Origin: Bacteroidia bacterium
GTDB taxonomy: Bacteria > Bacteroidota > Bacteroidia > Chitinophagales > JAUHXS01
DNA length: 64,000 nucleotides
Direction: 5' to 3'
Assembly: GCA_030426955.1 (NCBI GenBank)
Contig: JAUHXS010000012.1
Coordinates: 16,629 to 80,628, forward strand
Within the stretch, counting starts at the first letter, position 1. Every line of letters begins with the position of its first letter. Positions 7,648-57,838 of this stretch are shown here, piece by piece. The position numbers and the translations under genes are program-made. The notes under the pieces were generated by a model, which was given only the letters and a program-made list of their open reading frames with translations, did not search any database and was not told where the DNA came from.

Positions 7648-8022
7648 ATGCGAAACTTATTGATTTTCGTGTTTTTATACTTGTCATTAGAAATCTATGC
7701 ATCAAGTGATTCTACTAGCTATTTTCAAGAAGACGACTTGGACAAAATTTCTCTATTTGTTCCAAACTCATTTTCGCCAGACGGTGATGGTATTAATGAT
7801 CATTTAAACTTTAGGTCGAACAGTATTTTTACAGCTGAATTGATGATTTTTAATCACTATGGTAAATTGGTTTATTCAACGAGTGATTATCAAAATGGGT
7901 GGGATGGGAGAAAAAATAATGGTTGGAAATGTGAGACCGACACGTATTTCTATCTTATAAAAGGTCAAGCCACAGACGGAAAGCCTTTTAGTAAATTTGG
8001 AGAGGTTTTTCTTAAGCAATAA
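7648..8022 (+). CDS. Stand-alone T9SS type B C-terminal domain protein (signal peptide plus CTD only)
   Basis: 124 aa: signal peptide, then LFVPNSFSPDGDGINDHLNF...NGWDGRKNNGW...YFYLIKG..., which is essentially a complete type B CTD with no passenger domain. Confidence 0.5.
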   Translation: MRNLLIFVFLYLSLEIYASSDSTSYFQEDDLDKISLFVPNSFSPDGDGINDHLNFRSNSIFTAELMIFNHYGKLVYSTSDYQNGWDGRKNNGWKCETDTYFYLIKGQATDGKPFSKFGEVFLKQ

Positions 8023-34434: not shown

Positions 34435-34521
34435 ACATTTAGAATTAAGGAATGCTAATTACAGAAGTAAACGATTTGTGAGTTTCAAAAGGGAATAGAT
34501 TGCTATATTTGTTGAAGGGTT

Positions 34522-41369: not shown

Positions 41370-42093
41370 AAGTCGCTATTCCTGTTAACAAAAACTTAGG
41401 TCCTTCCAAAGTGTCTTTAAATAATATTCCTTTAAAACTATAAACTCTGCCGTCATTACCCATTACTAATAAATTGAATCCCATCTGCGCATCAAAGTGT
41501 AGATTATAATAACCAATCGTTCTAGCATTACCAGGCATTAAAACTCCTCCTGCGTTAAAAGGCGGGCAACTTGGCTCACAAGGCTCAAGAGCTCCAAGTA
41601 TTTCGGTAAAAAAAGTAATCAATGCACCGCTACTCGATGGATTTTCTATTGTAATTGTAGTCAAGGTATCTGAGTAAACTTTCAACCATGGTAAATCAAC
41701 CAAAACGTTTCCACTATCTGTAAGCGACATTTCAAATTTGTCTGTTTTTCGGTTAAGTCTTTCCCATTGACTAAATGTTGTGTTATATGTAAAAAATGTT
41801 TGTAAATCTGTATCAAATACAATCAAGCTATTGGTGGGACTTGCAATTGCATTGCGTTGCAAACTTGTCATTCGAGGTAATAATAAGCCTTGATTAGTAG
41901 ATTGAAGTTGTAGGGCTGCAGAAGTATGTGGTGTGTCTACATTGATACCAACTTGTGCAGTAGCAGTTAGTGAACAGACACTAGTGGTTAGAATCAGTAT
42001 AACAGCAGTTATAAATTCTCTTGCATATAGCTTGGGTGCTACATTCTTAGTAAACAAATTCAAAGAATTATATGTAAAGCTATTTACATACAT
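41359..42093 (-). CDS. Secreted protein, paralog 2 of the tandem triplet
   Basis: AQVGINVDTPHTSAALQLQSTNQGLLLPRMTSLQRNAIASPTNSLIVFDTD; 11-nt and 10-nt overlaps with neighbours. Confidence 0.5.
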   Translation of the reverse strand: MYVNSFTYNSLNLFTKNVAPKLYAREFITAVILILTTSVCSLTATAQVGINVDTPHTSAALQLQSTNQGLLLPRMTSLQRNAIASPTNSLIVFDTDLQTFFTYNTTFSQWERLNRKTDKFEMSLTDSGNVLVDLPWLKVYSDTLTTITIENPSSSGALITFFTEILGALEPCEPSCPPFNAGGVLMPGNARTIGYYNLHFDAQMGFNLLVMGNDGRVYSFKGILFKDTLEGPKFLLTGIATYDK

Positions 42094-42767
42094 GTAAACC
42101 CTTTTTTCTCACTAAAAGTATAGGTTCCTCTAAAAATGGCCGTTGTTGGATCATAAATAGCATCTAACTTAATAAATGGTTTTCCCCCGTCTCCATCTAA
42201 TGTAATAGCAATTTGCAAATGACTGATTTCAGTTACCGAAGAGTAATCCAATATAAATGGTGTGCCTATTGTGTTGGCGGTATCTACATTATCTATTTTT
42301 AGATTATACCTCATTGTTCCCGAGGGTATTATTTCCAAAGTATCTTCATTCTTAATGTGAATATCTACAAAATCGTTTAATGTAATTTGATAAGTAGAAG
42401 GGTCTGTATCGTCTACCTCAAAGTATTTAGTTTGATTAAGCACTTTCCATTTTGAATCAACATTACTATCACCTAAAAGGTTTTGATAAAAATTGTGCCT
42501 TTGATTGGTTGAGTCAAACAGCCAAACCCCTTGTAATGTATTGTCTTCCATTTGAGCCATAGAATCATTTCGAACCCTAGGAACTAATAAGCCTTTATTT
42601 ATCGAACGAATGTCTAATATTGCTGAAGAATCTGGGTTGTTGTTGTTGATACCGATTTGAGAGAATGATTGGAAAATTGTAAGATTAGAATATTGTAAGA
42701 TTAGTGCAATTATTAAAACCTTAAACCAATAACTCATAAATGTTTTTAAAATCTTCAAATTTTTCAA
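42084..42767 (-). CDS. Secreted protein, paralog 1 of the tandem triplet
   Basis: SQIGINNNNPDSSAILDIRSINKGLLVPRVRNDSMAQ...; 3-nt gap to the upstream gene. Confidence 0.5.
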   Translation of the reverse strand: MKNLKILKTFMSYWFKVLIIALILQYSNLTIFQSFSQIGINNNNPDSSAILDIRSINKGLLVPRVRNDSMAQMEDNTLQGVWLFDSTNQRHNFYQNLLGDSNVDSKWKVLNQTKYFEVDDTDPSTYQITLNDFVDIHIKNEDTLEIIPSGTMRYNLKIDNVDTANTIGTPFILDYSSVTEISHLQIAITLDGDGGKPFIKLDAIYDPTTAIFRGTYTFSEKKGFTCM

Positions 42768-42770
42768 TCT

Positions 42771-44795
42771 TTAATTTATAATCAGTTTTACTTTTTCCGA
42801 TTTCGCCACTTCTCCAGTTTTACTAATTGTTCTCACTTGATAATAATACGAATTTTTTGACCGAATGGTGCTGTCTGCATAACTATTTGAGCTAGTTAAT
42901 GTTGAAACTGGAAACATTTTCCCACCTTCTTTCATTCTGTAAACAACATAACCCGTTATCACTTCTTCAGTTCCAATCCAAGATATTTTCGCTATTTTTT
43001 GTGCCGTATCATACGCTACCATTACATTGGAAACAGCATTTGCTAAAATGATATTGGGTATTTGGACTTCATAGATGTTTGAATATGGAGATTTATTACC
43101 AATCAAATCCATAGACTGCACTTTGTATTCATATTCTACACCTTTCTGAATTGATTTGTCATTATATTTTGTAACAATCTTTTCTAGTGTTGCTAGTTTA
43201 GTCCAACTATTAGCACCTTTTATACTTCTAAATACATCAAATTGTTTTAAATCAGCATCAAAAACTGGAAGCCATTCTATTAGGACAGAATTAGAATGAA
43301 CGATTGATTCCTTTATAAATGGTGTAGCTGGAGGCGTGACATCAGGTAAGACATCTCCAGCAGATGATGAAAACTTACTTCTATTGCCCACTTTATCCAT
43401 CGCGATGATTTCATAAGTAAACTTATTTCTAGCATTCTTTGGAAGTATGTCTATATAGTTATTCTCTTTTATAACTTCAGGTGAAATCAATTGTCGGTGT
43501 ATTGCTCCATCTTCAAATGCGTTTCGATAAATCCAGTATCCATCAATATCGGGTTCGGAGTTTGCATTCCATGATAAAACCATTCTTCCTGTATCTGCTT
43601 TAACTTTTAATCCAGTTGGAATGGCTGGAGGTGTTTTGTCCTCAACTGACACACTTATCGTATCTGAAAATGAAGCGTTTCCTGATTTGTCTGAAGCCTT
43701 GAGATAATAATAATAGTTTTTACCTTCTTCTACTGCTTTATCTTTTAAAGTCTTTTGATTATTAAGGTCTGATTGATTCAGTTTATTAAAAATGCTACCT
43801 CTCTTTTCAGATTTATAAACATCCAATGTTCCTGAATATTTTGTAAGGTAATCCCAGTTCAGTTCTACAATTCTATTTGTTACTCTGTGTTCTTTCCAGT
43901 AAGGAGCATCTGGAGCAGTTTCATCTTTCGTGGAAATTTTAAATGGCTTTGAAGGCGTAACTTCTTTATTAAAGAAGTTTAAGCCAACTAGAGAATAGTA
44001 GTAGGTTTTTCCCTCTTGAATTGTATCTGCATAATAATAATCTGGGCTGACATATTTCCCATCTTTATTCATCACTTCATTAACAAGTATTGGCAAGTCA
44101 TTTATTTGCTCACCTTTTGAATCTGGTAATACTGATCTATAAATATTCACTGCATAAAATCGTTTATCTTCAGGCAACCATTTAATTTGAATTTCTTTTT
44201 TCCTTTGTTTAATGTCAATTCCAGAAACTGGTTTTTCAACTAAAGGAGTACCAGCTGTTATTAGTGGAGACACTCCAACTTCAATTTCCTTATCATCTTT
44301 GATATAGGTGATTTTATACTGTACAGACGTTCCTTTTTCAATTTCATCATTGACAATGTATGACCCAGTAAATTTTGCAAATTCATTATTAGTAATCATT
44401 TTCATTATAACGGCTAATTTCGGAATCCCCTGTAACGTTCCGTAAGCCGAGTCGGCAACAATAGTCGCGACTTCAAATTTCATGCTTGTATCACCAATAA
44501 CGCTTGGGAAGTTCGTATATCTAGGATATGGCGTATCGTAAACTTTTTTGAAACTTTTCCCCTTATCAAATGATTCATAAATAAATACTCCATCAGGATA
44601 AGTAAGTTGCTCAGAAAACCACTTTAGTTCGATATGTTCGGTTTCAGTAGAAGTACGGACGTACACCTGCGCTTGAGAGGTATTAGGGACTAGGCAATAG
44701 GAAATAGTAATTAGCCAATAGCCAATAGCCAATAGCCATTGAAATGAACTATCGATATTTAGTTTGAAATCCACTTTTGCCTTTTGGTTCTTCAC
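42771..44795 (-). CDS. Secreted/anchored protein with multiple fibronectin-III-like repeats
   Basis: 674 aa; N-terminal hydrophobic segment; repeated ~95-aa units with W/Y-containing Fn3-like strand patterns (...IQIKWLPEDKRFYAVNIYRS..., ...IEWLPVFDADLKQFDVFRS...). Confidence 0.45.
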   Translation of the reverse strand: MKNQKAKVDFKLNIDSSFQWLLAIGYWLITISYCLVPNTSQAQVYVRTSTETEHIELKWFSEQLTYPDGVFIYESFDKGKSFKKVYDTPYPRYTNFPSVIGDTSMKFEVATIVADSAYGTLQGIPKLAVIMKMITNNEFAKFTGSYIVNDEIEKGTSVQYKITYIKDDKEIEVGVSPLITAGTPLVEKPVSGIDIKQRKKEIQIKWLPEDKRFYAVNIYRSVLPDSKGEQINDLPILVNEVMNKDGKYVSPDYYYADTIQEGKTYYYSLVGLNFFNKEVTPSKPFKISTKDETAPDAPYWKEHRVTNRIVELNWDYLTKYSGTLDVYKSEKRGSIFNKLNQSDLNNQKTLKDKAVEEGKNYYYYLKASDKSGNASFSDTISVSVEDKTPPAIPTGLKVKADTGRMVLSWNANSEPDIDGYWIYRNAFEDGAIHRQLISPEVIKENNYIDILPKNARNKFTYEIIAMDKVGNRSKFSSSAGDVLPDVTPPATPFIKESIVHSNSVLIEWLPVFDADLKQFDVFRSIKGANSWTKLATLEKIVTKYNDKSIQKGVEYEYKVQSMDLIGNKSPYSNIYEVQIPNIILANAVSNVMVAYDTAQKIAKISWIGTEEVITGYVVYRMKEGGKMFPVSTLTSSNSYADSTIRSKNSYYYQVRTISKTGEVAKSEKVKLIIN

Positions 44796-44807
44796 TTTTG
44801 ACTCTAA

Positions 44808-47800
44808 TTAATATAATTTCTGATCTACTTCCAATCCAAAACTCACGCCCTGCCCCACAACAGTAACATATCCATTTAATGTGCCAAACATTTCTGGGGA
44901 AGAGTCAAGTTTCCTTAGTCCTAAGTTACCGGTCAGTCTAGCTGAAGCTAAACTCCATGTACCAGAGGCACCTGTAATTTTAGGATAGTTACAATCTGTA
45001 CCCCAGCTACAGCAACCCGCACATTTCCAAGATCTTCGCGTACAAGTGAACCAACAAACAGGTGGCAACGGAATATCCGGATATTTGTATTTACAACTAA
45101 TTCCGGCTGATGCATCTGCCCAAAAATATAATGTTGGAATATTGAACCCAGGGCTAAATACCGCCTTCCCAGCTCCACCGCCCGCTAAATAAGCATAAGC
45201 ATAAGGTTTGACTTTTACAATGCCGATGTCAATCCATGGAGCATAGAAATAAGCACCCAAATCGATACCTAGACCAAGTTCAAAGTAGTTCTGGGTAACA
45301 TCGAGCCAACCTGTTGGAGAAAAACCAAAACAACCAGGTTTTACCAATATCCGTCTTTCGAAGCTTCCTAAAGTCAATCTAAAACCATAAGGGTCAGAAG
45401 TGAAAACTCCGATAGCATCGACACATAGATTTGGTGTGCCACTTTCCAGTTGAAGCGAAGTGAAAAATCGTCGATCGGGTCTATTGTAGTAAAACTTGCC
45501 TTTCCCTCGTAAGGTACTGATATAGCCAAAGGCAGGCAAATAGTAATTCTTAATTCCCCACTTAATATCCATGGCCACTTCATTAATACCACCTTGTAAA
45601 CCGTTGACCTCAATTGCGCCTTCGATTAGGTGATCAAACCCCATGGTATAGCCATCTACCATTGTCAGACGCAGGTAGGCGCCTCCTTCAACACCTCCAT
45701 CTGGAATATAAGCGGCATTTGTAATGTCTGGTCCTACATTTTCGGTATTTTGATCAATGGAGTATCGTTCATTCATTATCGCGTTTCCGAAATCATGGCG
45801 CATGTGGTGATAAACCCTTATTTCACCTCCTAAAATTCGCATGGGACCAAATGGAATACCTAAACGAGTCAGCTCATTTTTGACCACTTTGCCTTGTAAG
45901 AATTCTTTTACCTTTTTAACAGGTTTGGCCCCCTTCTCTTTATTCATTTTATTGGCATACTTATTCTTTATTTTCTGGGTAGGACCGATATCCCCTGTGG
46001 CAGTTCCGGTTGGTGTTTCAACGTCTAGCCCAGCTTGTGCGAACCAATAAGAATAACCATCTTTTTTACCCAAAATAAATTTCGCATTCGCATAAAAGTC
46101 TACGGGTAGCATCATTCCCAGGAGTCCATACGCTTTAAAACAAGTTCCCCATTCAGGGTCGTTTACGTAAAATTGACCTTCGGCAGCGGCTTGCGCTAGA
46201 ATAACGTCAAAGTTGACACCCATTCTGGAAAAGCCTCTTTCACTAGTGAACTTAGGGTCATTGCCACTTAAACTCACCACACTAATTCGTGTAGGTCCAT
46301 TTTTGATTTCCTTGGCTCCTGAAGGACCAACTTCCAAATAATATCCAGAAAGATTCTCTGCCATATTAATGATCGCATTAAATCCAATTCGATACACATT
46401 ATTTATTCTACTAGCTGTAATTCGATCAATCGTTAAGTCAAATAAGTCCAAAAGCTTTCCATCAATTGGTTCTTCTAAATCGGCTTGTTGGTCTCTTTGA
46501 TCATAAAAACCAACCTCACCATCACTCCAAATATCAAATCCAGGCATGTTTCTCACCTTCAGACCGTATTCGTCAAAGTCTAAATCGATGGTCGTGCGAA
46601 GCTTATCCGTTGATTTAAATTCGCCTTTCTTAATTGTTAACGTTGAATTTCTATAGGTTTTATCTTCGTCATACACAATCATACCACTGCCATCGTCTAA
46701 ATCAATCAATGAAGCAGGCTGAAATCCATAATTTGTTAGAGGTACTTGATAGCGAATAGGTTTATTATTCATTACACGGAGAGGTATATATCCATTGGCA
46801 ACTCCCTCGGAAACAATATTATCTTCAAAAGTGACTGATAAATCGGTAAACCAAGTAAGGAATTCGTGCAAGCGCATTCTTCGATTATTAAGCTCTCTTT
46901 CTTTTAAATTTTTGTAAGTAACATTTCCTTGAAAACCCGAAGCGGTCAGGTACAGGGTGGACTCCATCTTTGTTTTTTCATCCTCTGAGGGAAATTGAGG
47001 ATTAATCGCGTGACCTTGATGAGAAAACACGAAACGACCTTTTGAATCCAATTTTTCTCCAAGATTTAGGGCGTATGTTGTTAGTTTAACCCCTTTTATA
47101 TTATCTTTTAAAGGGCTATCATCAGCAAAGTAAGCTTCGCAAATTTGTGGGGTAATGGAAATATCTGTTTGATCCGCAGGTCTAAAAGTATTACTTAAAC
47201 CAGTGAGTACACTTTGATCAGTTTTGATATAGGTGACTTTGTCTGCATTTCTAAAGCGCAATTCCATTCTTCGACCGTCCGCTGTTTTTATCTTTTCTGG
47301 CAGGAATATGGAACCTCCAAAGTTGAGTTTTACCTTGCTGTCCTTTATGTCATAATAGCAATAGTTGCCATCCAATTTTACCGTATAATCCAGCGGATCA
47401 ACCAATTCATAGGTTTTGTTTATATGGCTGTACCATTCTACCTTACCTGTTATTTTTTTGTTATTAAAGTCAAACCAAACGGTTTTTGAACTGGCAATCG
47501 CACTAGAATCTTTTATTGCGATTGGGAATGACCACCAGACCCGACCATGCAATTCTAGTCCTCGTGCATTATATAGTCTAAAGAAACCTGGAATAAATTC
47601 TGTGTACCCCTGATCTTCATTATCCAACTCTATGTATTTTTCCTTTAGTGTCCCTCGCACAGTACCAGAGTTCATTTGATCATGATTTTCTAAAGCAACA
47701 CTTCTACATTCACCTACATATAACTCATCACCCTCTTTAAATACTTTTACGCTCGCGGTACCTCCATCAAAAACATATTTACCATCCTCAAACTTTATAT

Positions 47801-50174
47801 AAGTTGTTGTTCGATCAAGTTTTGCTTCATGTCCATTACAATAGATACTTTCTAAATCCAGATACGCTTCATCTTCTTGTTTATTTGAAATGGGAACTTT
47901 AAAGGTATACTTGTTCTCCTCTTTTATTGTTTCTCCTTTTATCTGTGTAATAGCGTAGCCTAAAATATAACTATCTTTAATTTCATCTTTCACTATTTCT
48001 AACTTCAACTTGGTAAGCGTACCATGACATTCGGTGTAGTTGACATCATATTTCCCAATACCCTGATAGTTTGTTTCTGCTGAGCAATTTAATCCCTCCC
48101 CATCTATCCAACCTGTTGCATTTGAGTTAAACTCTGGTTGAATCAGTTTATTATAACTCAACTTTCCGCCAAATTCAACATCCTTTTGATGGTTGATCTT
48201 AAATGACTCGAAGTAAACACCTTTCCAATCATTTTGGGTGACAAATTGCCCAGGAGATTTTTTTGAGCTAAAGTCTATAATAGCATTTTTAGGGGCAATG
48301 GTAATAGATTTATAATATCCCACTGAATAAGGAGTGTTAAGAATGTTTTCTGTTATATATTCAAACTGATCTGCTTTTGTAAAGTTTGTTATATAATCTT
48401 TTGTGATTGCTTGACCACTCATTTCAACCGAAACTTCATTATCGCTAATGACATAAGCAGCATTTTCTAAAACTTTTAGCTTGATGTTTTCGGCAATATC
48501 TAAGTCGATGTTTTCTCCTAATAATACTTGCCCATTCAATTTATAGCTATTAAAATCGACCCACTGATCTTTTGTTTGCAATACAAATGAAGTGTCTCCA
48601 TTAGCTTGATCTAATGAAAACTCATTCTTGATATAGCCTTGGAGTTCTAACCCCGATTTATTTAATCTGGCTTGTTTTACACTAAATTTTAAATCAGATG
48701 GGTTTCCATTCTCTATTAAATTGATGGTTTTATTTCTAAACGGATAAAGAATTTCACCACCTTCTAAAACCATTTTTCCAGCAACGTTTTTAATGTTCAA
48801 GGCATTAAAATCTACTAAGTATTCAGCGGTATCTTCAAATATTTTAAGCTTTCCTTGTCCTGTATAGTTTTTTAAATCTGGATTTGTGATGTCTGAAATT
48901 GCTATAATATGATCTCCCGCATAAATACTGGCTGTTCCAGCAGTAAAAGTTCTTACCGCGCTTTTAGCAATAGGTGTTTCGTATACAATGGCACTCACTT
49001 CCCAAGCATATTGCTTACCTTCTTCTAAAGGTTTTTCCAAAGCAAACTCATATCCAAAAGCATGCGGAATTTCTTCAAAGGTTTCCTCATAGAAAGGCGT
49101 ATTGTATGCAATAGCATCTGTACCTGATTGATTAACTTGTTGCTCTACTATTTTTACACTGTAATTAATTGGCTCACCCATTGGAGCATTGTCAGGACCT
49201 TGCCACTTGAATATTGGTGTGCCGATTGCAACAAACGATTTATCTTTAGGCTTGGCCAATGGAATGTTGCCTCCTTTTAAGTCTACTCCGTAGTTAAACC
49301 AGCAAACTTCATTTAATCCATCATTCTCAAATATTGAAACGCCGTTTGCATCACTGGCTTTTATTCTGTAAGCATAGGTTTCGCCTATTTCTAACTGAAT
49401 TTGCTCTGGTCCATAGTAAAAAGATGTACCTAATGAAAGCTCATCATCTAATAAAGGTGTATTGGCACTATTGATAGCATCATTAGGGTTAATTTGTTCT
49501 GGAACTTGCACTAATGTGATTTCATAATTAGTCTGAATAGCTAAGCTAGCATAAGGTTGCCATTGAAATAAAATGTTTTGAGAACTGCGTGCAGGAACAG
49601 TTGAACCACAAGCAGGATAAATTGAAATTGGAGGATTGTTTTTGACAAACAGTGCAGATCCACAGGCTGGAGCTGCTAACGCAAGCCCTGTATTATAATC
49701 TAGAGCCTCTATGCAAATCGTATAAAACCCTTCTGGCAATGAACCTGATTGCAATAAATCTTGCTTGTTGATGCCACTTGCATTTAGGTTATTGTAGTTT
49801 AAGTAAGGGGTTAGAATGTTTCCACCTATTTCATTTGAACCTGGAAATAAGTTGATTGGATTGGGACGATAGTTTTCAGGCGTTTCAAGAAAAACTTGGT
49901 TGTTACTAATGGTGATTTTTAATCGAACATCGGTAGAAGGTTCATTAAAATCGTTAAAAACTAGGTTTACTTTAAACCTTTCAAATCCAGATACAACGTT
50001 ATTGCTTAAATATACCGAATAGGGTGGTGTGATCGAAAAGTTGGTGGTGACAGGGTAAATGGTCTGTGCCAGACAGTTTAAAGTTATTAGTTTGAAGTTT
50101 AAAGTTATTAGTATCAGTAACAACCTTAAATTTCTAACTTCAAACCTCAAACCAATATGTTTTTTAATTTTCAA
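44808..50174 (-). CDS. Giant secreted protein (1788 aa) with Cys-rich C-terminal tail; no recognisable named domains
   Basis: Signal peptide; 5.4-kb uninterrupted ORF; C-terminal ...PPVCWFTCTRRSWKCAGCCSWGTDCNYP... carries 9 Cys in about 30 aa. Confidence 0.5.
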   Translation of the reverse strand: MKIKKHIGLRFEVRNLRLLLILITLNFKLITLNCLAQTIYPVTTNFSITPPYSVYLSNNVVSGFERFKVNLVFNDFNEPSTDVRLKITISNNQVFLETPENYRPNPINLFPGSNEIGGNILTPYLNYNNLNASGINKQDLLQSGSLPEGFYTICIEALDYNTGLALAAPACGSALFVKNNPPISIYPACGSTVPARSSQNILFQWQPYASLAIQTNYEITLVQVPEQINPNDAINSANTPLLDDELSLGTSFYYGPEQIQLEIGETYAYRIKASDANGVSIFENDGLNEVCWFNYGVDLKGGNIPLAKPKDKSFVAIGTPIFKWQGPDNAPMGEPINYSVKIVEQQVNQSGTDAIAYNTPFYEETFEEIPHAFGYEFALEKPLEEGKQYAWEVSAIVYETPIAKSAVRTFTAGTASIYAGDHIIAISDITNPDLKNYTGQGKLKIFEDTAEYLVDFNALNIKNVAGKMVLEGGEILYPFRNKTINLIENGNPSDLKFSVKQARLNKSGLELQGYIKNEFSLDQANGDTSFVLQTKDQWVDFNSYKLNGQVLLGENIDLDIAENIKLKVLENAAYVISDNEVSVEMSGQAITKDYITNFTKADQFEYITENILNTPYSVGYYKSITIAPKNAIIDFSSKKSPGQFVTQNDWKGVYFESFKINHQKDVEFGGKLSYNKLIQPEFNSNATGWIDGEGLNCSAETNYQGIGKYDVNYTECHGTLTKLKLEIVKDEIKDSYILGYAITQIKGETIKEENKYTFKVPISNKQEDEAYLDLESIYCNGHEAKLDRTTTYIKFEDGKYVFDGGTASVKVFKEGDELYVGECRSVALENHDQMNSGTVRGTLKEKYIELDNEDQGYTEFIPGFFRLYNARGLELHGRVWWSFPIAIKDSSAIASSKTVWFDFNNKKITGKVEWYSHINKTYELVDPLDYTVKLDGNYCYYDIKDSKVKLNFGGSIFLPEKIKTADGRRMELRFRNADKVTYIKTDQSVLTGLSNTFRPADQTDISITPQICEAYFADDSPLKDNIKGVKLTTYALNLGEKLDSKGRFVFSHQGHAINPQFPSEDEKTKMESTLYLTASGFQGNVTYKNLKERELNNRRMRLHEFLTWFTDLSVTFEDNIVSEGVANGYIPLRVMNNKPIRYQVPLTNYGFQPASLIDLDDGSGMIVYDEDKTYRNSTLTIKKGEFKSTDKLRTTIDLDFDEYGLKVRNMPGFDIWSDGEVGFYDQRDQQADLEEPIDGKLLDLFDLTIDRITASRINNVYRIGFNAIINMAENLSGYYLEVGPSGAKEIKNGPTRISVVSLSGNDPKFTSERGFSRMGVNFDVILAQAAAEGQFYVNDPEWGTCFKAYGLLGMMLPVDFYANAKFILGKKDGYSYWFAQAGLDVETPTGTATGDIGPTQKIKNKYANKMNKEKGAKPVKKVKEFLQGKVVKNELTRLGIPFGPMRILGGEIRVYHHMRHDFGNAIMNERYSIDQNTENVGPDITNAAYIPDGGVEGGAYLRLTMVDGYTMGFDHLIEGAIEVNGLQGGINEVAMDIKWGIKNYYLPAFGYISTLRGKGKFYYNRPDRRFFTSLQLESGTPNLCVDAIGVFTSDPYGFRLTLGSFERRILVKPGCFGFSPTGWLDVTQNYFELGLGIDLGAYFYAPWIDIGIVKVKPYAYAYLAGGGAGKAVFSPGFNIPTLYFWADASAGISCKYKYPDIPLPPVCWFTCTRRSWKCAGCCSWGTDCNYPKITGASGTWSLASARLTGNLGLRKLDSSPEMFGTLNGYVTVVGQGVSFGLEVDQKLY

Positions 50175-50183
50175 ACCTTCTAA

Positions 50184-51845
50184 TCAAAAAGAATAACGAT
50201 AGTTAACTGTGCCTCTCACTTCACTAAAATTTTGTGTATCACTTTTTCTATTTACATAAGTAGTATTGAAGCTAATATTATGTTTTTTGTAAAACTTATA
50301 GCCAACAGATAGTCTTGCAGTGTAGGTATACCCATCAGCATTTCCGCTTGTAGTTCTTAATAAATAAGAGTTAAACAAACCTACTTTAATTTTCTTTTCA
50401 AACAAGTCCTTTCCAATTCCTACTGTTGGACCAATGTTGGTTAAATCCAAGACATCTGATTGCATCTTATTATAGTTTCCTGCCAAAGTCCACGTCAAAC
50501 CGATTGGGTGTATATTGTATCGGTAACTCAGAATGGTGTTTTGAAAAGTTGTGATTTGTTCGCTAATTCGATACTCATCTCTCGCATTGGCAACTTGGAA
50601 ACCTGTATTTAGAGAAAGGCTTTGTTTATGTTCTTTCGAACCAAAGGAGTAGTTTGCATTAAAGTTAGCATTTGTAGATACTTGGTAAAAATTCAATGAA
50701 TCTGTTACATCATCTCTAATTGCTTGTATGGAGGAAGAAAAGTTAGAAAATGCTAATCCTAAGTTAAGTTGTTGAGTCACTAAGTAATTAATGTTTGCCG
50801 AGCCTATTAGTCGAGTCGTTTTACTAGCCTCAGTGTTTTTTAAGTTATTGTGCTGAAAACCAATAGCACCGTTTATATTCATTTTCTTTTTTAACATCTG
50901 CCACCCTGCGCTCAATGTGATATCCTCCAAATCATTGTTGAAGAAATAAGCCCCCATTGTTTTATAATCTCCTTCTACTCTTTTATACATCAATTTCAAT
51001 TGATATCCTTCTCCTTGATATCCTAATCCTGACTGAATAGCATTATTATAGGAGGTAGTTGTTCTAGCAGTATACAAACCGCTCGTGGCTGAATAAATAC
51101 CATTCGGGTTTTCCGTTATCTCAGAATTGATATCATCTGAATAAGCACTCTTTGCAAATTCTAACTCAAAGCTCAATTTTTTAGTCAGCATTTTCTTTCC
51201 ATTGAAGCCCAAAACTAGATTTTCCGCTGGAGTAATACCTAAACTTGAGTCCTCATTTACTATAGAATTCACGTCGTCTTTCGCTTTAAATAGGATAAGA
51301 TCGATGAAGTTGTTATCATCTCCATATCCAAGTTTTAGTCCATAGCCTAGCCTTTTATAAGAGGCCGACTCTCCTAAAAGGTTGTTTGCTTCAACAGCTC
51401 TTCTGAATCTACCGTAAACAAAAGCAAATCGATATTTCTCAGGTGTTAGTTCAACTCCCGCACCTAAAAAGGTATGCCCTGCAAGGGTATGTGGGGAAAA
51501 AGTAACATTTCGATATCCAGCATGAACCTTAATCCATTTATAATATGGACTTGCTCCAAACTGATTAAAAGGTTGGCGAAAATCTGTGTTTTGATTAGTG
51601 AAGTAAGCGCTAAAAGGCACTTGAATGCCATAAAAGCTCATATTTAGATTGGCATTAGCAGACCAGTTATAAGGATCACGTCGATCTTCTATTCCAGAAG
51701 CGGTATATCCAGATAGAGAACCACCAATTGATCCATTGATTTTAAAGGGCTCGGCTTTAGCGACACTTTCTAAGTCTTGTGCCTTTAGATGTCCCGTCGA
51801 AACGACTATTAAAATGAGTAATACTAACCTTGATTGGTGCACCAA
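50184..51845 (-). CDS. Outer-membrane beta-barrel protein (553 aa)
   Basis: Signal peptide; amphipathic beta-strand periodicity throughout; C-terminal ...GTVNYRYSF with terminal Phe, typical of an OMP signature. Confidence 0.5.
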   Translation of the reverse strand: MVHQSRLVLLILIVVSTGHLKAQDLESVAKAEPFKINGSIGGSLSGYTASGIEDRRDPYNWSANANLNMSFYGIQVPFSAYFTNQNTDFRQPFNQFGASPYYKWIKVHAGYRNVTFSPHTLAGHTFLGAGVELTPEKYRFAFVYGRFRRAVEANNLLGESASYKRLGYGLKLGYGDDNNFIDLILFKAKDDVNSIVNEDSSLGITPAENLVLGFNGKKMLTKKLSFELEFAKSAYSDDINSEITENPNGIYSATSGLYTARTTTSYNNAIQSGLGYQGEGYQLKLMYKRVEGDYKTMGAYFFNNDLEDITLSAGWQMLKKKMNINGAIGFQHNNLKNTEASKTTRLIGSANINYLVTQQLNLGLAFSNFSSSIQAIRDDVTDSLNFYQVSTNANFNANYSFGSKEHKQSLSLNTGFQVANARDEYRISEQITTFQNTILSYRYNIHPIGLTWTLAGNYNKMQSDVLDLTNIGPTVGIGKDLFEKKIKVGLFNSYLLRTTSGNADGYTYTARLSVGYKFYKKHNISFNTTYVNRKSDTQNFSEVRGTVNYRYSF

Positions 51846-51869
51846 ATGGATGGTTTACATAAGAAAAAG

Positions 51870-51877
51870 CAAATATA
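51870..51877 (-). promoter_or_regulatory. Candidate Bacteroidota -7 promoter element (TAtaTTTG) upstream of the beta-barrel gene
   Basis: The minus-strand sequence TATATTTG matches the Bacteroidetes sigma-A -7 consensus TAnnTTTG, about 25 nt upstream of the ATG at 51845. The -33 TTTG lies at a non-ideal spacing. Confidence 0.25.
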
Positions 51878-51970
51878 CATTCAATCTTAGGTCAAACCTA
51901 AATTTTTGGGATAAATGACACTTGAAGTATTAAATAGCTAAGCCAAAGGTACTTTTGAAATAACAATTGT

Positions 51971-52384
51971 TTACAGCTTAAACTGCAATTCCACCTTACT
52001 GCCATTATCAGAGAAAGAGATCAGGTCAGAAAGCTGAGTCATTAAGAAGACACCACGACCGTTAGGTTTGTCTAGATTTTCTTCTTTAGTTGGATCAGGT
52101 AAATTGTTGTAATCAAAACCTGGGCCTTCATCTTCCACAAAAAAAGTTAAAGCTTTGTCTTCCTTTTGGTGGCTAATTTTAACTTGTTTGCTTTCATCAG
52201 CCTGATTGCCGTGCATAATAGCATTATTAACCGCTTCTGTCATTACAACCAGCATATTGCTATATATCTCGTCAGAAATATCATACTCATCTTTGAGCTC
52301 ATCAATCAATGGTTCTATCCTAGTTATATTTTTAGGATTAGATTTTAAAACGAGTTCAGCATCTTTTAGCAAACTGCCCATCAC
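51971..52384 (-). CDS. HATPase_c-type anti-sigma regulatory factor-like Ser kinase (RsbW/SpoIIAB-like)
   Basis: 137 aa; ...EAVNNAIMHGN... N-box and ...DEGPGF... G1-box of the GHKL ATPase fold. Confidence 0.55.
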   Translation of the reverse strand: MMGSLLKDAELVLKSNPKNITRIEPLIDELKDEYDISDEIYSNMLVVMTEAVNNAIMHGNQADESKQVKISHQKEDKALTFFVEDEGPGFDYNNLPDPTKEENLDKPNGRGVFLMTQLSDLISFSDNGSKVELQFKL

Positions 52385-52396
52385 ACTAATTTAACA

Positions 52397-55300
52397 TTAA
52401 AAAGTAATTTCCTTAAAATAGTCTTCTACTAAATTTTTGTAAAAAGGTTTCAAATTTGGTGGTAAAGTTTTATATAAATCTATTTCAGCTTGTCTTTTTT
52501 TGAGGTATTCCTCAATTTCAGGAGGTGTTTTCTTTTCAATTTCTTGAGCTGTATTCGATTTTCTTTCCTGATCCAGTTCTCTTTCTCGTTCTGCATCTTC
52601 AGCTTCCAATAATCTTGTCATAATATCTTCTTGACGACGCATAATTTCTTTAGATAATCTTTTGTTTACCAAATCCTCTTCTGTTTTTTCCATCTCATCG
52701 ATGAGTTTGCCTAAATCGCCGTAAGCGTCTTTACCCTCTTTTCCACTTTTGCTGTTCAGCTCTTCTAGTGCTTGTCGTATTTGAGCTTGTTGCTGTGCCA
52801 TTTTAGCGAACTCTCTGCTCATGCCTGATTTGCCCCCAGGTTTGCCCTCCTTCATCATTTTTTGTAAATCTCCGATTTGTTGGTTGAGTTGTTTCTGCAA
52901 ATCGCCCATCTTCGACATCTTGCCACTTTTCCCGCTTTTGCTTCCGCCAGGGTTCTGACAATTTTGGCTTCCCTGCATATTGCTTGCCATTTGTTCTTGC
53001 ATAGATTGCATGACCTCGCTCATCATTAATGCAAGATTATTTAATGAGGTCATTGCGTATTGTTGCCTTATGCTCGCATTTCTAGTATTTCTCGCCTCTA
53101 AGTAATCGATGCTTTCCTCAACTTCCTTAGAAAGCTTATTGACCTCTTTGGTTACAAAAGATTCAATCTGAAAAACTTTCTTTGCAAGTGAAAGTAGACT
53201 GTCTTTAACCATATTAGATTCATCTTTAAGTTTATATTGATCTTGAATAAGTGTAACGTACTCAGGACTTTTTTGGCTGGTGGTATTTAGTCTTGCTATC
53301 AAGTCTTCCTGATCGAATGAAAGCTGGATTAAGTTTTCTAAAATCTGTCTCACTGCCTCAAGGTTTAGAGCAGTCTCTTGAGATTGCATCTGCTGTTGCA
53401 TGCCTTCTAATTGCTGTGCTAAATCCCCCATTTTTTCGGAAGATTGTTTTTGTTGTTCAGATGCTTTCTTAGACTTGTTATCTTGTAAGCTTTCCTTTGA
53501 TTCTTGCATACTTTTTTTGATGTCTTCTACTTTGGGTTTTGTATCATCAATAGACTGATCTGTTTTATTGCCTGTTTTCTCCTCCAACGATTCTTGCTTT
53601 TTGTTTAGATCGTCAAGTTTTTTTTCTAAATCATCGAATTGTTGAGTAATCTCTTCTTGCTTTTCTTGTAATTGTTCAGGAGACTCTTGCTTATCTTCGG
53701 TTTCTTTACTCAACTCTTCTTGCTTTTGAGAAAGTTCTTTGAGATCATCAATGGTCTCCTGCAAGTCTTGCTCAAACTCCAACTTTTCAAATAATGCCAA
53801 CATCTGGTCTAAATTCTGCTCCATCTCCTCATTGTTCGTTTCAAATTCTTCTAGTTTTTCAATAGCATTTTCATTATTTAACTTTTCTAAAAGATCAGAG
53901 AGCTTATCCATCAGCTCTTTGACTTCATCAGACATAGTTTCCTCTAATAACTTCTGTAGCTTATCGTATTTCTGTAAAACCTTTTCGTCAAACTGTTTAA
54001 ACTTTTGTTGCTGTGATAAATTCTCCTTAAAGTTTTCCTGAATGGATTCTACCATATTTTGCAGATCCTTTTGTTTTTCTATGACACTTTTTATCTGATT
54101 CTTATCTTGCCAATCTAGATTCTTTTTCTGAAGAAGATTTTCTTGAATTTGTTTTATTTCCTCCCTCATTTTCTTCGCTTCATCAATTGTTTCACTTAAA
54201 TCATCTTTTAGCTCATCATCTTTTTGGTCTGCTAGTCTTTGCATTTCATTTTTGTCGGGAAGTGATAAAGTCAGTAACCCTGAGCGAGTGTACTTGCTAC
54301 CATTAATAGCATCATTATCCCACACTTCAAAGTAATATGAAACTTCATCTCCAGGCTGAATATTAAGGTCTTTAAAGTTTTTATAATGTGTAAATATTTG
54401 ATAAGTGCTTCCTTTTTGAATGTCAATTTTTTCAGATATAAAGCTTGTCTCTGTTTGATCTTGTTTATCAATTTTATATTTAAAAAACAGATTCTTCAGA
54501 CCATAATCGTCAGAGATATCTCCTAAAAAGTATAAGTAAGTTAAGTCAGTCGAATCAACCTTAGGATCAACTTTTATAGATGGATATAAATCAGGTATTG
54601 TATTAATTGTATACTGAATGGAGTCGCCTACAGGCACCTCTGTTCCTTCTGTATAGATGGTGTAAAGTTGGTTAGAAAGAATTTTTCTGTTGATCTCAAA
54701 TCTTTCTTCTTGTTTGTTGTTGGCAATGAGACGTTTGTTGTCGTCAAACTTGAGACTTATGCTACGGACACTCTTTCCTTCAAAATTCCAAGACACCTTT
54801 GTACCAACGGGGATGTAGAGGTCACCAGTATTCTTTAATACGTCATTCTTTTTATTGATATAACTAGGATAGTTTAGCTGTACTTCAAAGCTAGAAATCA
54901 GAGGCTTTTTTAACATGTTGATTTGATATCGTTTGGAATAGTGCCCCAATGCTTCAACTTGAAAACTCAAGTCACTTTGAACATTCTTGAGTTTGTGACT
55001 AAATGAACTGAGATCTGATTTTGACATTTTCACTTTCTTTCCATCAATGATTAGAGAAGCATTATTCGGAATGGCTGTTCCTTCGAGTTTTATCAGAATA
55101 TCAAGATCATCAAATTGCACCACATCAAGTGATGAGTTTAGCAATTTAAATTGAAATGGAGCTGCTTTTTCAAACGCTGTATTATTTTGAATAATTCTAT
55201 TAGTACCATCCTTGATAATGTCAGGAGAAATGAAGAGAATTAATAAAATAGTCAAAAGAGGCGGAATGGCATATTTGAGATACTTTTTATTATCACCAAG

Positions 55301-55756
55301 GTCAATGGCACTGCTGAAATTGATATGTCCTATTTCTTGTGTTTTTTGCTCAATACCAGCGATCAAAAGATCATTGGATTGACCGATAGCCTGGTCGTTT
55401 TTTAATTGAAGAATATTAAGCAATTTGTCTTTTATCTCTGAAAAGTGTTCGCCGATTACTTTTGCTGCTTGGGCGTAAGATAAGTGTTGTCCAATCTGAT
55501 AATATTTAAATGTCGGTATGGCAATTAAATTATAACAAAACCATAGGGCTGTCCCGATAAAGCCATAGAACAAAATTTTCCGGGTAAGTGTATTGAAATA
55601 AAAATAATACTCCAACAAATCAATTGCCAAAAATAAACCCAGTATCAACCCAATGGATATAAGGCTGCCTTTAATAAGTTTATTCAAATAGTACTTTCGT
55701 ATAAACTTATCAAGCTTTTGAAGTAATTGGCTATGATTGTTTTGGGTAGTATTCAC
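52397..55756 (-). CDS. Large membrane protein (1119 aa): two N-terminal TM helices, a central beta-rich region and a ~550-aa E/K/Q-rich coiled-coil C-terminal half
   Basis: Hydrophobic segments at about aa 30-50 and 60-80; the C-terminal half is low-complexity coiled coil (…QEELSKETEDKQESPEQLQEKQEEITQQFDDLEKKLDDL…). Resembles Bacteroidota DUF4175-type proteins by recollection. Confidence 0.45.
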   Translation of the reverse strand: MNTTQNNHSQLLQKLDKFIRKYYLNKLIKGSLISIGLILGLFLAIDLLEYYFYFNTLTRKILFYGFIGTALWFCYNLIAIPTFKYYQIGQHLSYAQAAKVIGEHFSEIKDKLLNILQLKNDQAIGQSNDLLIAGIEQKTQEIGHINFSSAIDLGDNKKYLKYAIPPLLTILLILFISPDIIKDGTNRIIQNNTAFEKAAPFQFKLLNSSLDVVQFDDLDILIKLEGTAIPNNASLIIDGKKVKMSKSDLSSFSHKLKNVQSDLSFQVEALGHYSKRYQINMLKKPLISSFEVQLNYPSYINKKNDVLKNTGDLYIPVGTKVSWNFEGKSVRSISLKFDDNKRLIANNKQEERFEINRKILSNQLYTIYTEGTEVPVGDSIQYTINTIPDLYPSIKVDPKVDSTDLTYLYFLGDISDDYGLKNLFFKYKIDKQDQTETSFISEKIDIQKGSTYQIFTHYKNFKDLNIQPGDEVSYYFEVWDNDAINGSKYTRSGLLTLSLPDKNEMQRLADQKDDELKDDLSETIDEAKKMREEIKQIQENLLQKKNLDWQDKNQIKSVIEKQKDLQNMVESIQENFKENLSQQQKFKQFDEKVLQKYDKLQKLLEETMSDEVKELMDKLSDLLEKLNNENAIEKLEEFETNNEEMEQNLDQMLALFEKLEFEQDLQETIDDLKELSQKQEELSKETEDKQESPEQLQEKQEEITQQFDDLEKKLDDLNKKQESLEEKTGNKTDQSIDDTKPKVEDIKKSMQESKESLQDNKSKKASEQQKQSSEKMGDLAQQLEGMQQQMQSQETALNLEAVRQILENLIQLSFDQEDLIARLNTTSQKSPEYVTLIQDQYKLKDESNMVKDSLLSLAKKVFQIESFVTKEVNKLSKEVEESIDYLEARNTRNASIRQQYAMTSLNNLALMMSEVMQSMQEQMASNMQGSQNCQNPGGSKSGKSGKMSKMGDLQKQLNQQIGDLQKMMKEGKPGGKSGMSREFAKMAQQQAQIRQALEELNSKSGKEGKDAYGDLGKLIDEMEKTEEDLVNKRLSKEIMRRQEDIMTRLLEAEDAERERELDQERKSNTAQEIEKKTPPEIEEYLKKRQAEIDLYKTLPPNLKPFYKNLVEDYFKEITF

Positions 55757-55819: not shown

Positions 55820-55850
55820 AAAAAAGCGTTTCATTTGAAACGCTTTTCCA
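55820..55850 (-). terminator. Rho-independent terminator after the substrate-binding-protein gene; it insulates the downstream block
   Basis: Hairpin gcgtttcatttgaaacgc with flanking A/T runs, 19 nt downstream of the 55869 stop and upstream of the 55756 start. Confidence 0.6.
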
Positions 55851-57659: not shown

Positions 57660-57838
57660 TCACGCTTCAAAAATACTAAATTTTAATCAAAACTGATGAA
57701 TCACTTTGATTTTCTCCTTTATGTCAATAAACTAAATTATACATTTGTATAGAATTTTGGAGCAGTGGCATGGTGTGCTTCATATTCTAAATAAAGAAAA
57801 CGTATCTTTGGTATGTAAAGCACCTTTCTAAGCGAACT

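What the first reader, a model, noticed from the sequence alone, without database searches (positions are those of the whole stretch)
51971..55756. HATPase anti-sigma-like kinase paired with a 1119-aa two-TM coiled-coil protein at the head of the block
A 137-aa GHKL-fold protein (RsbW/SpoIIAB-like) follows a very large membrane protein by 12 nt. The membrane protein's C-terminal half is ~550 aa of E/K/Q-rich predicted coiled coil. No STAS anti-anti-sigma partner or sigma factor is adjacent, so this is not a classical partner-switching module. The long coiled coil could be a molecular ruler, a scaffold or a mechanical element. The pair may regulate, or form part of, the downstream apparatus. 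A candidate -7 promoter element in the 125-nt gap before the barrel gene suggests the downstream genes can also be expressed independently.
Basis: partly seen in the sequence, partly recalled or inferred. Interest (0 to 1): 0.55.

Follow-up and report, generated by a model that had tools for sequence, protein, structure and literature searches.

The report
Conserved envelope-protein and kinase gene pair
The two genes are real and form an old, widely conserved pair in one group of Bacteroidota: a large uncharacterised envelope protein (DUF4175) followed by a small SpoIIAB/RsbW-type kinase, normally followed by the RNase gene ybeY. They have no conserved link to the genes downstream in this window, and their function is unknown.

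Summary
Both genes exist as described on the minus strand. One is a 1119-aa DUF4175 protein (55756..52397). The other is a 136/137-aa HATPase_c_2 protein (52384..51971), 12-15 nt downstream.

Two details need correcting. The large protein has three conserved hydrophobic helices, not two. That topology places three Ig-like domains and the roughly 600-aa helical region in the periplasm. Only about 105 residues face the cytoplasm, where the kinase sits.

The pair is an ancestral, autonomous module of Chitinophagales/Saprospiraceae:
- The kinase follows DUF4175 in 55 of 78 informative species genomes.
- DUF4175 precedes the kinase in at least 71 of 77 metagenome loci.
- ybeY usually comes next (45 of 55 and 59 of 76).

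None of about 170 related loci carries the downstream barrel or the 1788-aa gene. Synteny with the closest relatives stops exactly at the kinase stop codon. The 125-nt gap holds three promoter-like TAnnTTTG motifs. So the reading of the pair as head of the downstream block is not supported.

No STAS domain or sigma factor is a conserved neighbour. The mechanism is inferred only: an orphan partner-switch-type kinase, possibly coupled to the envelope protein's cytoplasmic face. It could equally be merely co-transcribed with ybeY. Interest is modest.

The parts
52397..55756 (-). Gene for the 1119-aa DUF4175-family inner-membrane protein
   Evidence: ORF. Pfam PF13779 at 52.3 bits. More than 1400 full-length homologues of ~1100-1170 aa at 38-57% identity.
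55607..55666 (-). Transmembrane helix 1 (residues ~31-50)
   Evidence: Hydropathy maximum conserved in 84 homologues (median 2.18). Lies within AF2 helix 7-52.
55511..55573 (-). Transmembrane helix 2 (residues ~62-82)
   Evidence: Hydropathy conserved (median 1.89). Lies within AF2 helix 56-90.
55283..55510 (-). Predicted cytoplasmic loop (residues 83-158), three short helices, among the best-conserved parts of the protein
   Evidence: Column conservation 0.69 against 0.53-0.57 for the TM1-TM2 hairpin, the Ig-like domains and the first part of the helical region. AF2 helices 94-102, 106-124 and 128-141 at pLDDT ~60-70. Positive-inside charge counts. S93 is S in 70 of 86 sequences, so not invariant.
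55214..55279 (-).
   Evidence: Hydropathy maximum in all 86 homologues (minimum 1.48, median 2.31). AF2 helix 153-176. K/R-rich on its N-terminal side.
54257..55159 (-). Three tandem Ig/FN3-like beta-sandwich domains (residues ~200-500), predicted periplasmic
   Evidence: AF2 strands at pLDDT 85-92. Foldseek PDB matches to three-domain Ig/Fn3 arrays, E ~1e-7. The Pfam DUF4175 hit covers residues 291-509.
52403..54253 (-). All-helical region (residues 502-1118) in 17 helices. Residues 511-800 are E/K/Q/D-rich. Residues 801-927 and 1011-1119 are better conserved. Predicted periplasmic.
   Evidence: AF2 secondary structure at pLDDT mostly 70-89. Composition. Heptad-like periodicity. Conservation.
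51971..52384 (-). Gene for the 136/137-aa SpoIIAB/RsbW-fold ATP-binding protein (HATPase_c_2). Probable start is the ATG at 52381.
   Evidence: Pfam E 1.2e-22. PDB sequence hits to RsbW and SpoIIAB. AF2 model plus Foldseek, TM 0.80 to SpoIIAB 1l0o. Orthogroup of 132-150 aa at 50-68% identity.
52205..52240 (-). N-box of the kinase (TEAVNNAIMHGN, residues 49-60)
   Evidence: E50, A51, N54, H58, G59 and N60 are invariant, and T49, V52, N53 and I56 are at least 90% conserved, in 31 orthologues. The motif is also conserved across 56 sequences drawn from the loci.
52115..52132 (-). G1 box (DEGPGF, residues 85-90)
   Evidence: D85, G87, G89 and F90 are invariant.
52040..52060 (-). G2 box (GRGVFLM, residues 109-115)
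   Evidence: Invariant in the orthologues.
51846..51970 (-). 125-nt intergenic gap that ends the conserved module. It carries three TAnnTTTG (Bacteroidota -7-like) motifs on the coding strand at 51877..51870, 51900..51893 and 51951..51944.
   Evidence: Sequence. Pattern search gives 3 matches here against 67 in 128,000 strand-positions of the whole window. Synteny with relatives breaks here. No terminator-like site was reported in the gap.
55822..55847 (-). Terminator-like hairpin with a T-run between the upstream SBP_bac_5 gene and the DUF4175 gene. It marks the upstream boundary of the unit.
   Evidence: 11-bp stem AAAAGCGTTTC/GAAACGCTTTT followed by T-runs on both strands.

Best explanation
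SHOWN.
(1) The large protein is a bona fide full-length DUF4175-family protein with three N-terminal membrane helices. By the positive-inside rule, and because Ig-like arrays are typically extracytoplasmic, its N-terminal 30 residues and a conserved ~75-residue three-helix loop face the cytoplasm. Three Ig-like domains plus ~600 residues of helical bundle or coiled coil lie in the periplasm.
(2) The small protein is a cytoplasmic SpoIIAB/RsbW-fold protein with intact N, G1 and G2 ATP-binding boxes. It belongs to its own orthogroup, only 25% identical to a kinase from a classical SpoIIE-STAS-kinase module.
(3) DUF4175 -> kinase (-> ybeY -> mnmG) is an ancestral gene order in Chitinophagales/Saprospiraceae, retained down to 38% protein identity. 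The two-gene pair survives without ybeY in several lineages, including this window.
(4) The pair is unrelated to the barrel and giant-protein block downstream, which has its own promoter-like motifs and its own distribution.

INFERRED (about 0.3 likely). The kinase is a partner-switch-type serine kinase or binding protein. Its activity or location is coupled to the envelope through the conserved cytoplasmic face of DUF4175, and DUF4175 senses or scaffolds something in the periplasm. The output goes to a partner encoded elsewhere (an orphan STAS-like protein or another target), not to an adjacent sigma factor.
For: Identity and fold.
Topology.
Family breadth.

Linkage, sampling by DUF4175: the kinase lies directly downstream on the same strand in 55 of 78 informative GTDB species loci.
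Linkage, sampling by kinase: DUF4175 lies directly upstream in at least 71 of 77 metagenome loci and in 3 of 3 look-ups, one with an 8-nt overlap.
On a neighbour-joining tree the adjacency is spread over the whole tree, with at least 9 independent losses, so it is ancestral.
The pair persists where ybeY is absent and the next gene is convergent or unrelated.

Independence from the downstream block.
Distinct orthogroup.
No STAS or sigma among recurrent neighbours.
Against: - The functional coupling rests on gene order alone.
- The DUF4175-to-kinase junction is loose (median gap ~80 nt, up to 600). The kinase-to-ybeY junction is tight (median 3 nt; 13 of 45 with 4- or 1-nt overlaps). This ties the kinase at least as closely to ybeY.
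- Every pairwise combination occurs: DUF4175->ybeY without the kinase in 4 loci; M23 peptidase->kinase->ybeY->gidA without DUF4175 in loci L150, L151 and L169 (gene content confirmed by Pfam for L150 and L169); and DUF4175 alone in 19 loci.
- DUF4175 proteins with and without an adjacent kinase are equally conserved in the cytoplasmic loop.
- The only well-conserved cytoplasmic Ser (S93) is not invariant. It is Ala in two kinase-linked loci.
- A mirror-tree test gave no signal specific to the cytoplasmic segment.
- The cytoplasmic loop is not a STAS fold.
- Topology is predicted, not measured.
Confidence: 0.55

Rival explanations
1. Inherited operon order without direct partnership. The kinase belongs functionally with ybeY (and mnmG) in a housekeeping transcription unit, or acts on a STAS or other partner encoded elsewhere. 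DUF4175 is merely the conserved upstream gene, and in this genome a rearrangement removed ybeY.
For: - The kinase-ybeY junction is much tighter than the DUF4175-kinase junction (median 3 nt vs 80 nt; 13 of 45 with 4- or 1-nt overlaps).
- The kinase-ybeY-gidA trio occurs behind a different upstream gene (coiled-coil M23 peptidase) in loci L150, L151 and L169.
- There is no conservation difference in the DUF4175 cytoplasmic parts with or without the adjacent kinase.
- The mirror-tree test was not specific.
- Classical STAS/SpoIIE modules exist in related Bacteroidota, so trans-encoded partners are plausible.
Against: - The kinase is found next to DUF4175 more often (at least 92%) than next to ybeY (78%) when sampling by kinase.
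- The pair survives as a stand-alone two-gene unit with convergent or unrelated downstream genes in several lineages and in this window.
- An 8-nt DUF4175/kinase overlap occurs in L086, and gaps of 5 nt or less occur in 12 of 55 loci.
- No biochemical link between RsbW-type kinases and YbeY is known to me.
Confidence: 0.35
2. One reading: the pair heads, regulates or is part of the downstream apparatus (553-aa barrel, 1788-aa protein, fn3 protein, three small paralogues and a T9SS-sorted protein).
For: - Same strand and physical adjacency in this window.
- No terminator-like site was reported in the 125-nt gap, so some read-through is possible.
Against: - 0 of about 165 related loci place any of the downstream genes next to the pair.
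- Even the closest relative (57% and 68% identity) has ybeY there.
- The barrel family has 1571 homologues, named mainly from Cytophagaceae and Cyclobacteriaceae, in contexts lacking DUF4175 and the kinase.
- Three promoter-like TAnnTTTG motifs sit in the gap.
Confidence: 0.05
3. The small protein is a classical anti-sigma factor that sequesters a sigma factor encoded elsewhere, with a STAS antagonist also elsewhere. The DUF4175 linkage would then be irrelevant.
For: - The best structural and sequence matches are SpoIIAB, RsbW and UsfX.
- The ATP-binding boxes are intact.
Against: - It scores far below the SpoIIAB and RsbW equivalog cut-offs (43.9 vs 135 bits; 37.6 vs 145 bits).
- No sigma or STAS gene is a conserved neighbour in about 165 loci.
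- From general knowledge, not tested here: Bacteroidota are not known to have the group-3 sigma factors (sigma-B/sigma-F type) that these anti-sigmas bind.
Confidence: 0.1

Closest known systems
SpoIIAB / RsbW anti-sigma serine kinases (Pfam HATPase_c_2; PDB 1l0o, 1til, 6m36)
   Same: Single-domain GHKL fold of ~135-145 aa. N, G1 and G2 ATP-binding boxes are conserved. The best fold matches have TM 0.7-0.9.
   Different: Only ~17-25% identical and well below the equivalog cut-offs. No adjacent STAS antagonist, PP2C phosphatase or sigma factor. The conserved neighbours are a DUF4175 membrane protein and ybeY.
DUF4175 (PF13779) / TIGR02302 family of Alphaproteobacteria
   Same: Pfam hit above the gathering score. 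N-terminal membrane helices, then a beta-rich region and a long low-complexity helical region, collinear with the model (positions 187-402, and weakly 661-758, of 825).
   Different: The Bacteroidota proteins are longer (~1110 aa), and many are not recognised by the precomputed Pfam annotation. No function is known for either group. The only leads found are that a TIGR02302 gene is a CenR (envelope and division regulon) target in Rhodobacter sphaeroides (PMC9275681), and that AdvA of A. baumannii has a DUF4175 hit upstream of the only region that tolerates transposon insertions (residues 203-238), together with two predicted TM helices (PMC7481262).
Partner-switching modules with membrane or non-STAS partners (e.g. 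Chlamydia RsbU-RsbV-RsbW; Pseudomonas SiaA-SiaB-SiaC); recalled from general knowledge
   Same: An RsbW-like kinase used outside the sigma-B/sigma-F paradigm, with input from the envelope or a non-sigma output. This is what the module may work like.
   Different: Those systems have an identified phospho-acceptor protein and a PP2C phosphatase. Neither is encoded at this locus, and no phospho-acceptor is identifiable in DUF4175. The resemblance is a lead, not a test.
Classical SpoIIE-STAS-HATPase_c_2 module in related Bacteroidota (locus L089)
   Same: Same kinase fold family, in the same phylum.
   Different: That kinase is only 25% identical to the window kinase and sits with its STAS and PP2C partners. 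The window's orthogroup never does.

Membership tests
HATPase_c_2 (SpoIIAB/RsbW-type GHKL proteins) | Pfam PF13581 match above the gathering score | tested here: met
   80.7 bits against a cut-off of 27.4, covering model positions 3-126 of 127.
HATPase_c_2 (SpoIIAB/RsbW-type GHKL proteins) | Bergerat ATP-binding fold with N, G1 and G2 boxes | tested here: met
   AF2 model pLDDT 89.5. Foldseek TM 0.80 to SpoIIAB and TMt 0.85-0.91 to RsbW. TEAVNNAIxHGN, DEGxGF and GRGVFLM are conserved or invariant across orthologues.
Classical partner-switching anti-sigma module (SpoIIAB/RsbW sensu stricto) | Equivalog-level similarity to SpoIIAB or RsbW | tested here: not met
   TIGR01925 43.9 bits vs 135; NF003144 37.6 bits vs 145; TIGR01924 25.1 bits vs 155.
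Classical partner-switching anti-sigma module (SpoIIAB/RsbW sensu stricto) | Adjacent STAS anti-anti-sigma gene | tested here: not met
   No STAS hit in 38 ORFs of the window scanned. No STAS-like family among the recurrent neighbours in 85 loci. A trans-encoded STAS cannot be excluded.
Classical partner-switching anti-sigma module (SpoIIAB/RsbW sensu stricto) | Cognate sigma factor and PP2C phosphatase in the locus | tested here: not met
   None found in the scanned ORFs of the window or among the conserved neighbours.
Classical partner-switching anti-sigma module (SpoIIAB/RsbW sensu stricto) | Serine kinase activity on a partner, or sigma binding | not testable with these tools
   Requires biochemistry.
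DUF4175 (PF13779) | Pfam match above the gathering score | tested here: met
   52.3 bits against 27.3, residues 291-509 matching model positions 187-402. A weak second stretch, about residues 826-931, matches model positions 661-758.
DUF4175 (PF13779) | N-terminal transmembrane helices followed by a large soluble region | tested here: met
   Three conserved hydrophobic helices.
Conserved DUF4175-kinase-ybeY cluster of Chitinophagales/Saprospiraceae (defined here) | Kinase orthologue directly downstream of DUF4175 on the same strand | tested here: met
   12-15 nt gap in the window. The same arrangement occurs in 55 of 78 and at least 71 of 77 related loci.
Conserved DUF4175-kinase-ybeY cluster of Chitinophagales/Saprospiraceae (defined here) | ybeY directly downstream of the kinase | tested here: not met
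   No YbeY homologue anywhere in the 64-kb window (tblastn). It is present in 45 of 55 (47 counting two YbeY fusion ORFs) and 59 of 76 related loci.
Anti-phage defence systems (PADLOC) | Match to any PADLOC model | tested here: not met
   No hits for the pair or for the two downstream proteins.

The most novel reading that the evidence does not exclude
DUF4175 is a previously unrecognised transmembrane receptor or scaffold. Its periplasmic Ig-like and helical ectodomain would report envelope state, and its small conserved cytoplasmic three-helix face would directly dock and control an orphan SpoIIAB/RsbW-type kinase. That would be a STAS-independent, membrane-anchored partner-switch, and it would give the first function to the DUF4175 family.
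Probability: 0.2. Interest if true: 0.6.

Novelty: new member of a known kind. Interest (0 to 1): 0.3.

Why it matters
DUF4175 is a large family (more than 1400 hits at 90% clustering and about 1500 clusters at 50%) with no assigned function. Small RsbW-like kinases lacking STAS or sigma partners are common but poorly understood in Bacteroidota.

A robust genetic linkage between the two, and with ybeY, gives a concrete and testable starting point. The tests would be deletion phenotypes, interaction assays and phosphoproteomics in a culturable Lewinella, Chitinophaga or Saprospira strain.

For the scan itself, the main value is negative. The pair should not be used to interpret the downstream barrel and giant-protein block, which is a separate module.

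Tried and rejected
- Exact-sequence look-ups of the window's own kinase and DUF4175 protein found no record, so the source organism was not identified.
- A PDB profile search with the DUF4175 alignment gave only generic coiled-coil hits.
- Foldseek of the full-length model gave only generic Ig/Fn3 arrays.
- The AFDB50 library was unavailable.
- Lenient Pfam scans of four sub-regions added nothing beyond DUF4175.
- AdvA of A. baumannii was considered as a characterised DUF4175 relative. The papers place that Pfam hit upstream of residues 203-238, alongside two TM helices, and a 2026 preprint describes AdvA as having a novel nucleotidyl-cyclase-like fold. I therefore treated it as a weak lead, not a homologue of the ectodomain.
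- S93 as a phospho-acceptor is not supported, because it is not invariant.
- Comparing DUF4175 conservation with and without an adjacent kinase showed no difference.
- Mirror-tree partial correlations showed no signal specific to the cytoplasmic segment.
- A fused-chain AlphaFold test of kinase plus cytoplasmic loop was considered but not run.
- PADLOC, Rfam and tRNA scans were all negative.
- Literature searches for partner-switching in Bacteroidetes and for SenB were uninformative.

Full report
**Observation**

The minus strand carries a 1119-aa ORF (55756..52397, GTG start). It is followed by a 137-aa ORF (52384..51971). That ORF has a GTG start, with an ATG one codon later that gives the 136-aa database form. 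The gap is 12 nt from the GTG or 15 nt from the ATG.

A terminator-like hairpin with flanking T-runs (55847..55822) separates the large gene from the upstream SBP_bac_5 gene. A 125-nt gap separates the small gene from the 553-aa barrel ORF.

**The small protein**

It matches Pfam HATPase_c_2 (E 1.2e-22). It also matches the SpoIIAB and RsbW NCBIfam models, but far below their equivalog cut-offs.

An AlphaFold model built on 31 orthologues (pLDDT 89.5, pTM 0.83) superposes best on three proteins:
- SpoIIAB: TM 0.80, 24% identity.
- RsbW: target-normalised TM 0.85-0.91.
- UsfX.

The three ATP-binding boxes are invariant or nearly so in the orthogroup:
- N box: TEAVNNAIxHGN.
- G1 box: DEGxGF.
- G2 box: GRGVFLM.

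It is therefore very probably an ATP-binding SpoIIAB/RsbW-fold kinase or switch protein. It is not an equivalog of either named protein.

**The large protein**

It matches Pfam DUF4175 above threshold (residues 291-509; a weaker collinear stretch lies near residues 826-931). It has more than 1400 full-length homologues of ~1100-1170 aa. The source records name these mostly as Chitinophagales, Saprospiraceae and Lewinellaceae.

The 'two-TM' description is wrong. A third hydrophobic helix (residues ~160-181) is conserved in all 86 sequences examined, and AlphaFold predicts it as a helix.

Three lines of evidence set the topology:
- The N-terminal 30 residues are K/R-rich (mean 5.3 K+R).
- TM3 has K/R on its N-terminal side.
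- Residues ~200-500 fold as three Ig/FN3-like beta-sandwiches that match extracellular Ig/Fn3 arrays (Foldseek E ~1e-7).

The most economical topology is N-in. The ~75-residue loop (83-158) is then cytoplasmic and residues 183-1119 are periplasmic.

The C-terminal ~600 residues are all-helical with a heptad-like pattern, but they break into 17 helices. Only residues 511-800 are strongly E/K/Q/D-rich (56%). The rest is well conserved. This looks more like a helical bundle or segmented coiled coil than a single 'ruler'.

The predicted cytoplasmic parts and TM3 are the best-conserved segments (0.68-0.69 against 0.53-0.57 for the TM1-TM2 hairpin, the Ig-like domains and the first helical stretch). 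The N-terminal 190-residue module occurs only at the N-terminus of this family among 1.8 billion representative proteins (1532 hits).

**Comparative context: sampling by DUF4175**

I fetched 80 species-representative genome loci with a DUF4175 alignment and added five loci from look-ups.
- The kinase orthologue lies directly downstream on the same strand in 55 of 78 informative loci.
- Clustering all ORFs of these loci revealed a third recurrent gene, ybeY. It follows the kinase in 45 of the 55 pair loci, or 47 counting two YbeY fusion ORFs.
- No STAS-like, PP2C or sigma family recurs.
- On a neighbour-joining tree of the DUF4175 proteins, the pair is spread over the whole tree with at least 9 independent losses. 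It is therefore ancestral.

**Comparative context: sampling by the kinase**

I fetched 80 metagenome loci with a kinase alignment.
- DUF4175 lies directly upstream in at least 71 of 77 informative loci.
- ybeY lies directly downstream in 59 of 76.
- Three further look-ups of kinase orthologues all showed a ~1100-aa gene directly upstream, overlapping the kinase gene by 8 nt in one case.

**Relation to the downstream block**

None of the ~165 loci contains a homologue of the 553-aa barrel, the 1788-aa protein or the other downstream genes next to the pair.

In the closest relatives (L006: 57% and 68% identity; also L008, L012 and L047) the order is SBP_bac_5 - DUF4175 - kinase. Their similarity to the window stops exactly at the kinase 3' end. 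ybeY follows there, and the window has no ybeY at all.

The barrel family has 1571 homologues, with named members mainly from Cytophagaceae and Cyclobacteriaceae. In one locus the barrel stands alone. In another it is followed by a 1470-aa protein homologous to the N-terminus of the 1788-aa protein (29% identity, E 3e-44) and preceded by polyphosphate kinase. The barrel plus giant protein is therefore its own module.

The 125-nt gap holds three TAnnTTTG motifs on the coding strand, against 67 in the whole window on both strands. No terminator-like site was reported in the gap. Many of the other matches in the window lie just upstream of gene starts. The juxtaposition in this window is best explained as a lineage-specific rearrangement.

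**How tight is the DUF4175-kinase link?**

The evidence here is mixed.

In favour of coupling:
- The very high adjacency in both sampling directions across deep divergence.
- Survival of the pair as a stand-alone unit, with convergent or unrelated genes downstream, in several lineages and in this window.

Against coupling:
- The DUF4175-kinase junction is loose (median ~80 nt, up to 600). The kinase-ybeY junction is tight (median 3 nt; 13 of 45 with 4- or 1-nt overlaps).
- Four loci have DUF4175->ybeY without the kinase.
- Three loci have dUTPase - TPR - (DUF4292) - coiled-coil M23 peptidase -> kinase -> ybeY -> gidA without DUF4175.
- DUF4175 proteins with and without the adjacent kinase are equally conserved in the cytoplasmic loop.
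- The best-conserved cytoplasmic serine (S93) is not invariant.
- A mirror-tree analysis gave no signal specific to the cytoplasmic segment.
- The cytoplasmic loop is a small three-helix element, not a STAS fold.

**Mechanism**

Shown:
- The gene identities and folds.
- The conserved cluster and its independence from the downstream block.

Predicted:
- The three-TM, N-in topology.

Inferred, about 0.3 likely:
- The kinase works as an orphan partner-switch-type kinase.
- Its activity or localisation is coupled to the envelope through the cytoplasmic face of DUF4175.
- Its target is encoded elsewhere.

The main rival (0.35) is that the kinase is only co-transcribed with ybeY/mnmG and has no direct relationship with DUF4175.

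**Comparison with known systems**

The kinase is a member of HATPase_c_2. It fails the tests for a classical SpoIIAB/RsbW module: equivalog score, adjacent STAS, and adjacent sigma or PP2C. A genuine SpoIIE-STAS-kinase module from a related bacterium has a kinase only 25% identical to this one.

The large protein is a member of DUF4175, for which no function is published. The only leads in the searchable literature are these:
- A TIGR02302 gene lies in the CenR envelope and division regulon of Rhodobacter sphaeroides (PMC9275681).
- A DUF4175 Pfam hit lies upstream of residues 203-238 of the Acinetobacter division protein AdvA, which also has two predicted TM helices (PMC7481262).

**Verdict**

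The genes are real but already-catalogued family members. The conserved DUF4175-kinase-ybeY cluster appears not to have been described, and it is a useful but modest lead. The link to the downstream apparatus is not supported.

Noticed in passing
window 38552-51845 (minus strand): The downstream block holds a 553-aa barrel and a 1788-aa protein (no Pfam or NCBIfam hit for either), a 674-aa fn3-repeat protein, three small ORFs (227, 244 and 220 aa) and a 720-aa T9SS-sorted SprB/PKD protein. The barrel plus giant-protein pair recurs elsewhere (L090) without DUF4175 or the kinase. The barrel family has 1571 homologues, none carrying a functional name beyond one generic 'outer membrane beta-barrel protein' label.
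   Followed up: partly
window 40707-42767 (minus strand): By eye, the three consecutive small proteins look like paralogues. After a hydrophobic N-terminus they share a motif like Q(V/L/I)GIN(T/N)xxPxxSAxL(D/Q)(I/L)xSxNKGLLxPR. None has a Pfam or NCBIfam hit.
   Followed up: no
window 51846-51970, and whole window: ybeY, which follows the kinase in most relatives, is absent from the entire 64-kb window. Synteny with the closest relatives breaks exactly at the kinase stop codon, which indicates a rearrangement or insertion at this point.
   Followed up: yes
L150 1350-8707; L169 86-8764 (also L151): In a minority of metagenome loci the same kinase orthogroup sits in the order dUTPase - TPR protein - (DUF4292) - coiled-coil Peptidase_M23 - kinase - YbeY - GidA, without DUF4175. 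The upstream neighbour is again an envelope and probably periplasmic coiled-coil protein.
   Followed up: partly
L001, L016, L020, L025, L050, L061, L073, L076 and others: The kinase and ybeY genes overlap by 4 nt or 1 nt in 13 of 45 loci, which suggests translational coupling of these two genes.
   Followed up: partly
L070 14288-15043; L078 13820-14584: The ORF after the kinase is ~250 aa. In L070 it combines a YbeY domain with a 6-O-methylguanine-DNA methyltransferase DNA-binding domain. This could be a real fusion or an ORF-calling artefact. The L078 ORF clusters with it but was not itself scanned.
   Followed up: no
L089 10284-13132: A classical SpoIIE (685 aa) - STAS (111 aa) - HATPase_c_2 (143 aa) partner-switching module lies 3 kb from a barrel homologue in a related bacterium. 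Its kinase is only 25% identical to the window kinase.
   Followed up: partly
window 52001-54000; 53739-54041 (+): AT skew is strongly negative on the plus strand (-0.28), and a 100-aa antisense shadow ORF is present. Both are consequences of the A-rich GAA/AAA/CAA codons of the helical region on the minus strand. They are not separate features.
   Followed up: yes
whole window: TAnnTTTG is rarer overall than in dinucleotide shuffles (67 against 90 +/- 9). Many matches sit just upstream of gene starts, e.g. 57675..57668 before the SBP gene, 34504-34511 before the gene starting at 34522, and 57803-57810 before the gene starting at 57839. This is consistent with its role as the Bacteroidota -7 promoter element.
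   Followed up: partly
window 7648-8022 (+): A 124-aa ORF consists almost only of a CHU_C type IX secretion sorting domain (E 2e-19). It may be a remnant or the mis-called 3' end of a larger gene.
   Followed up: no
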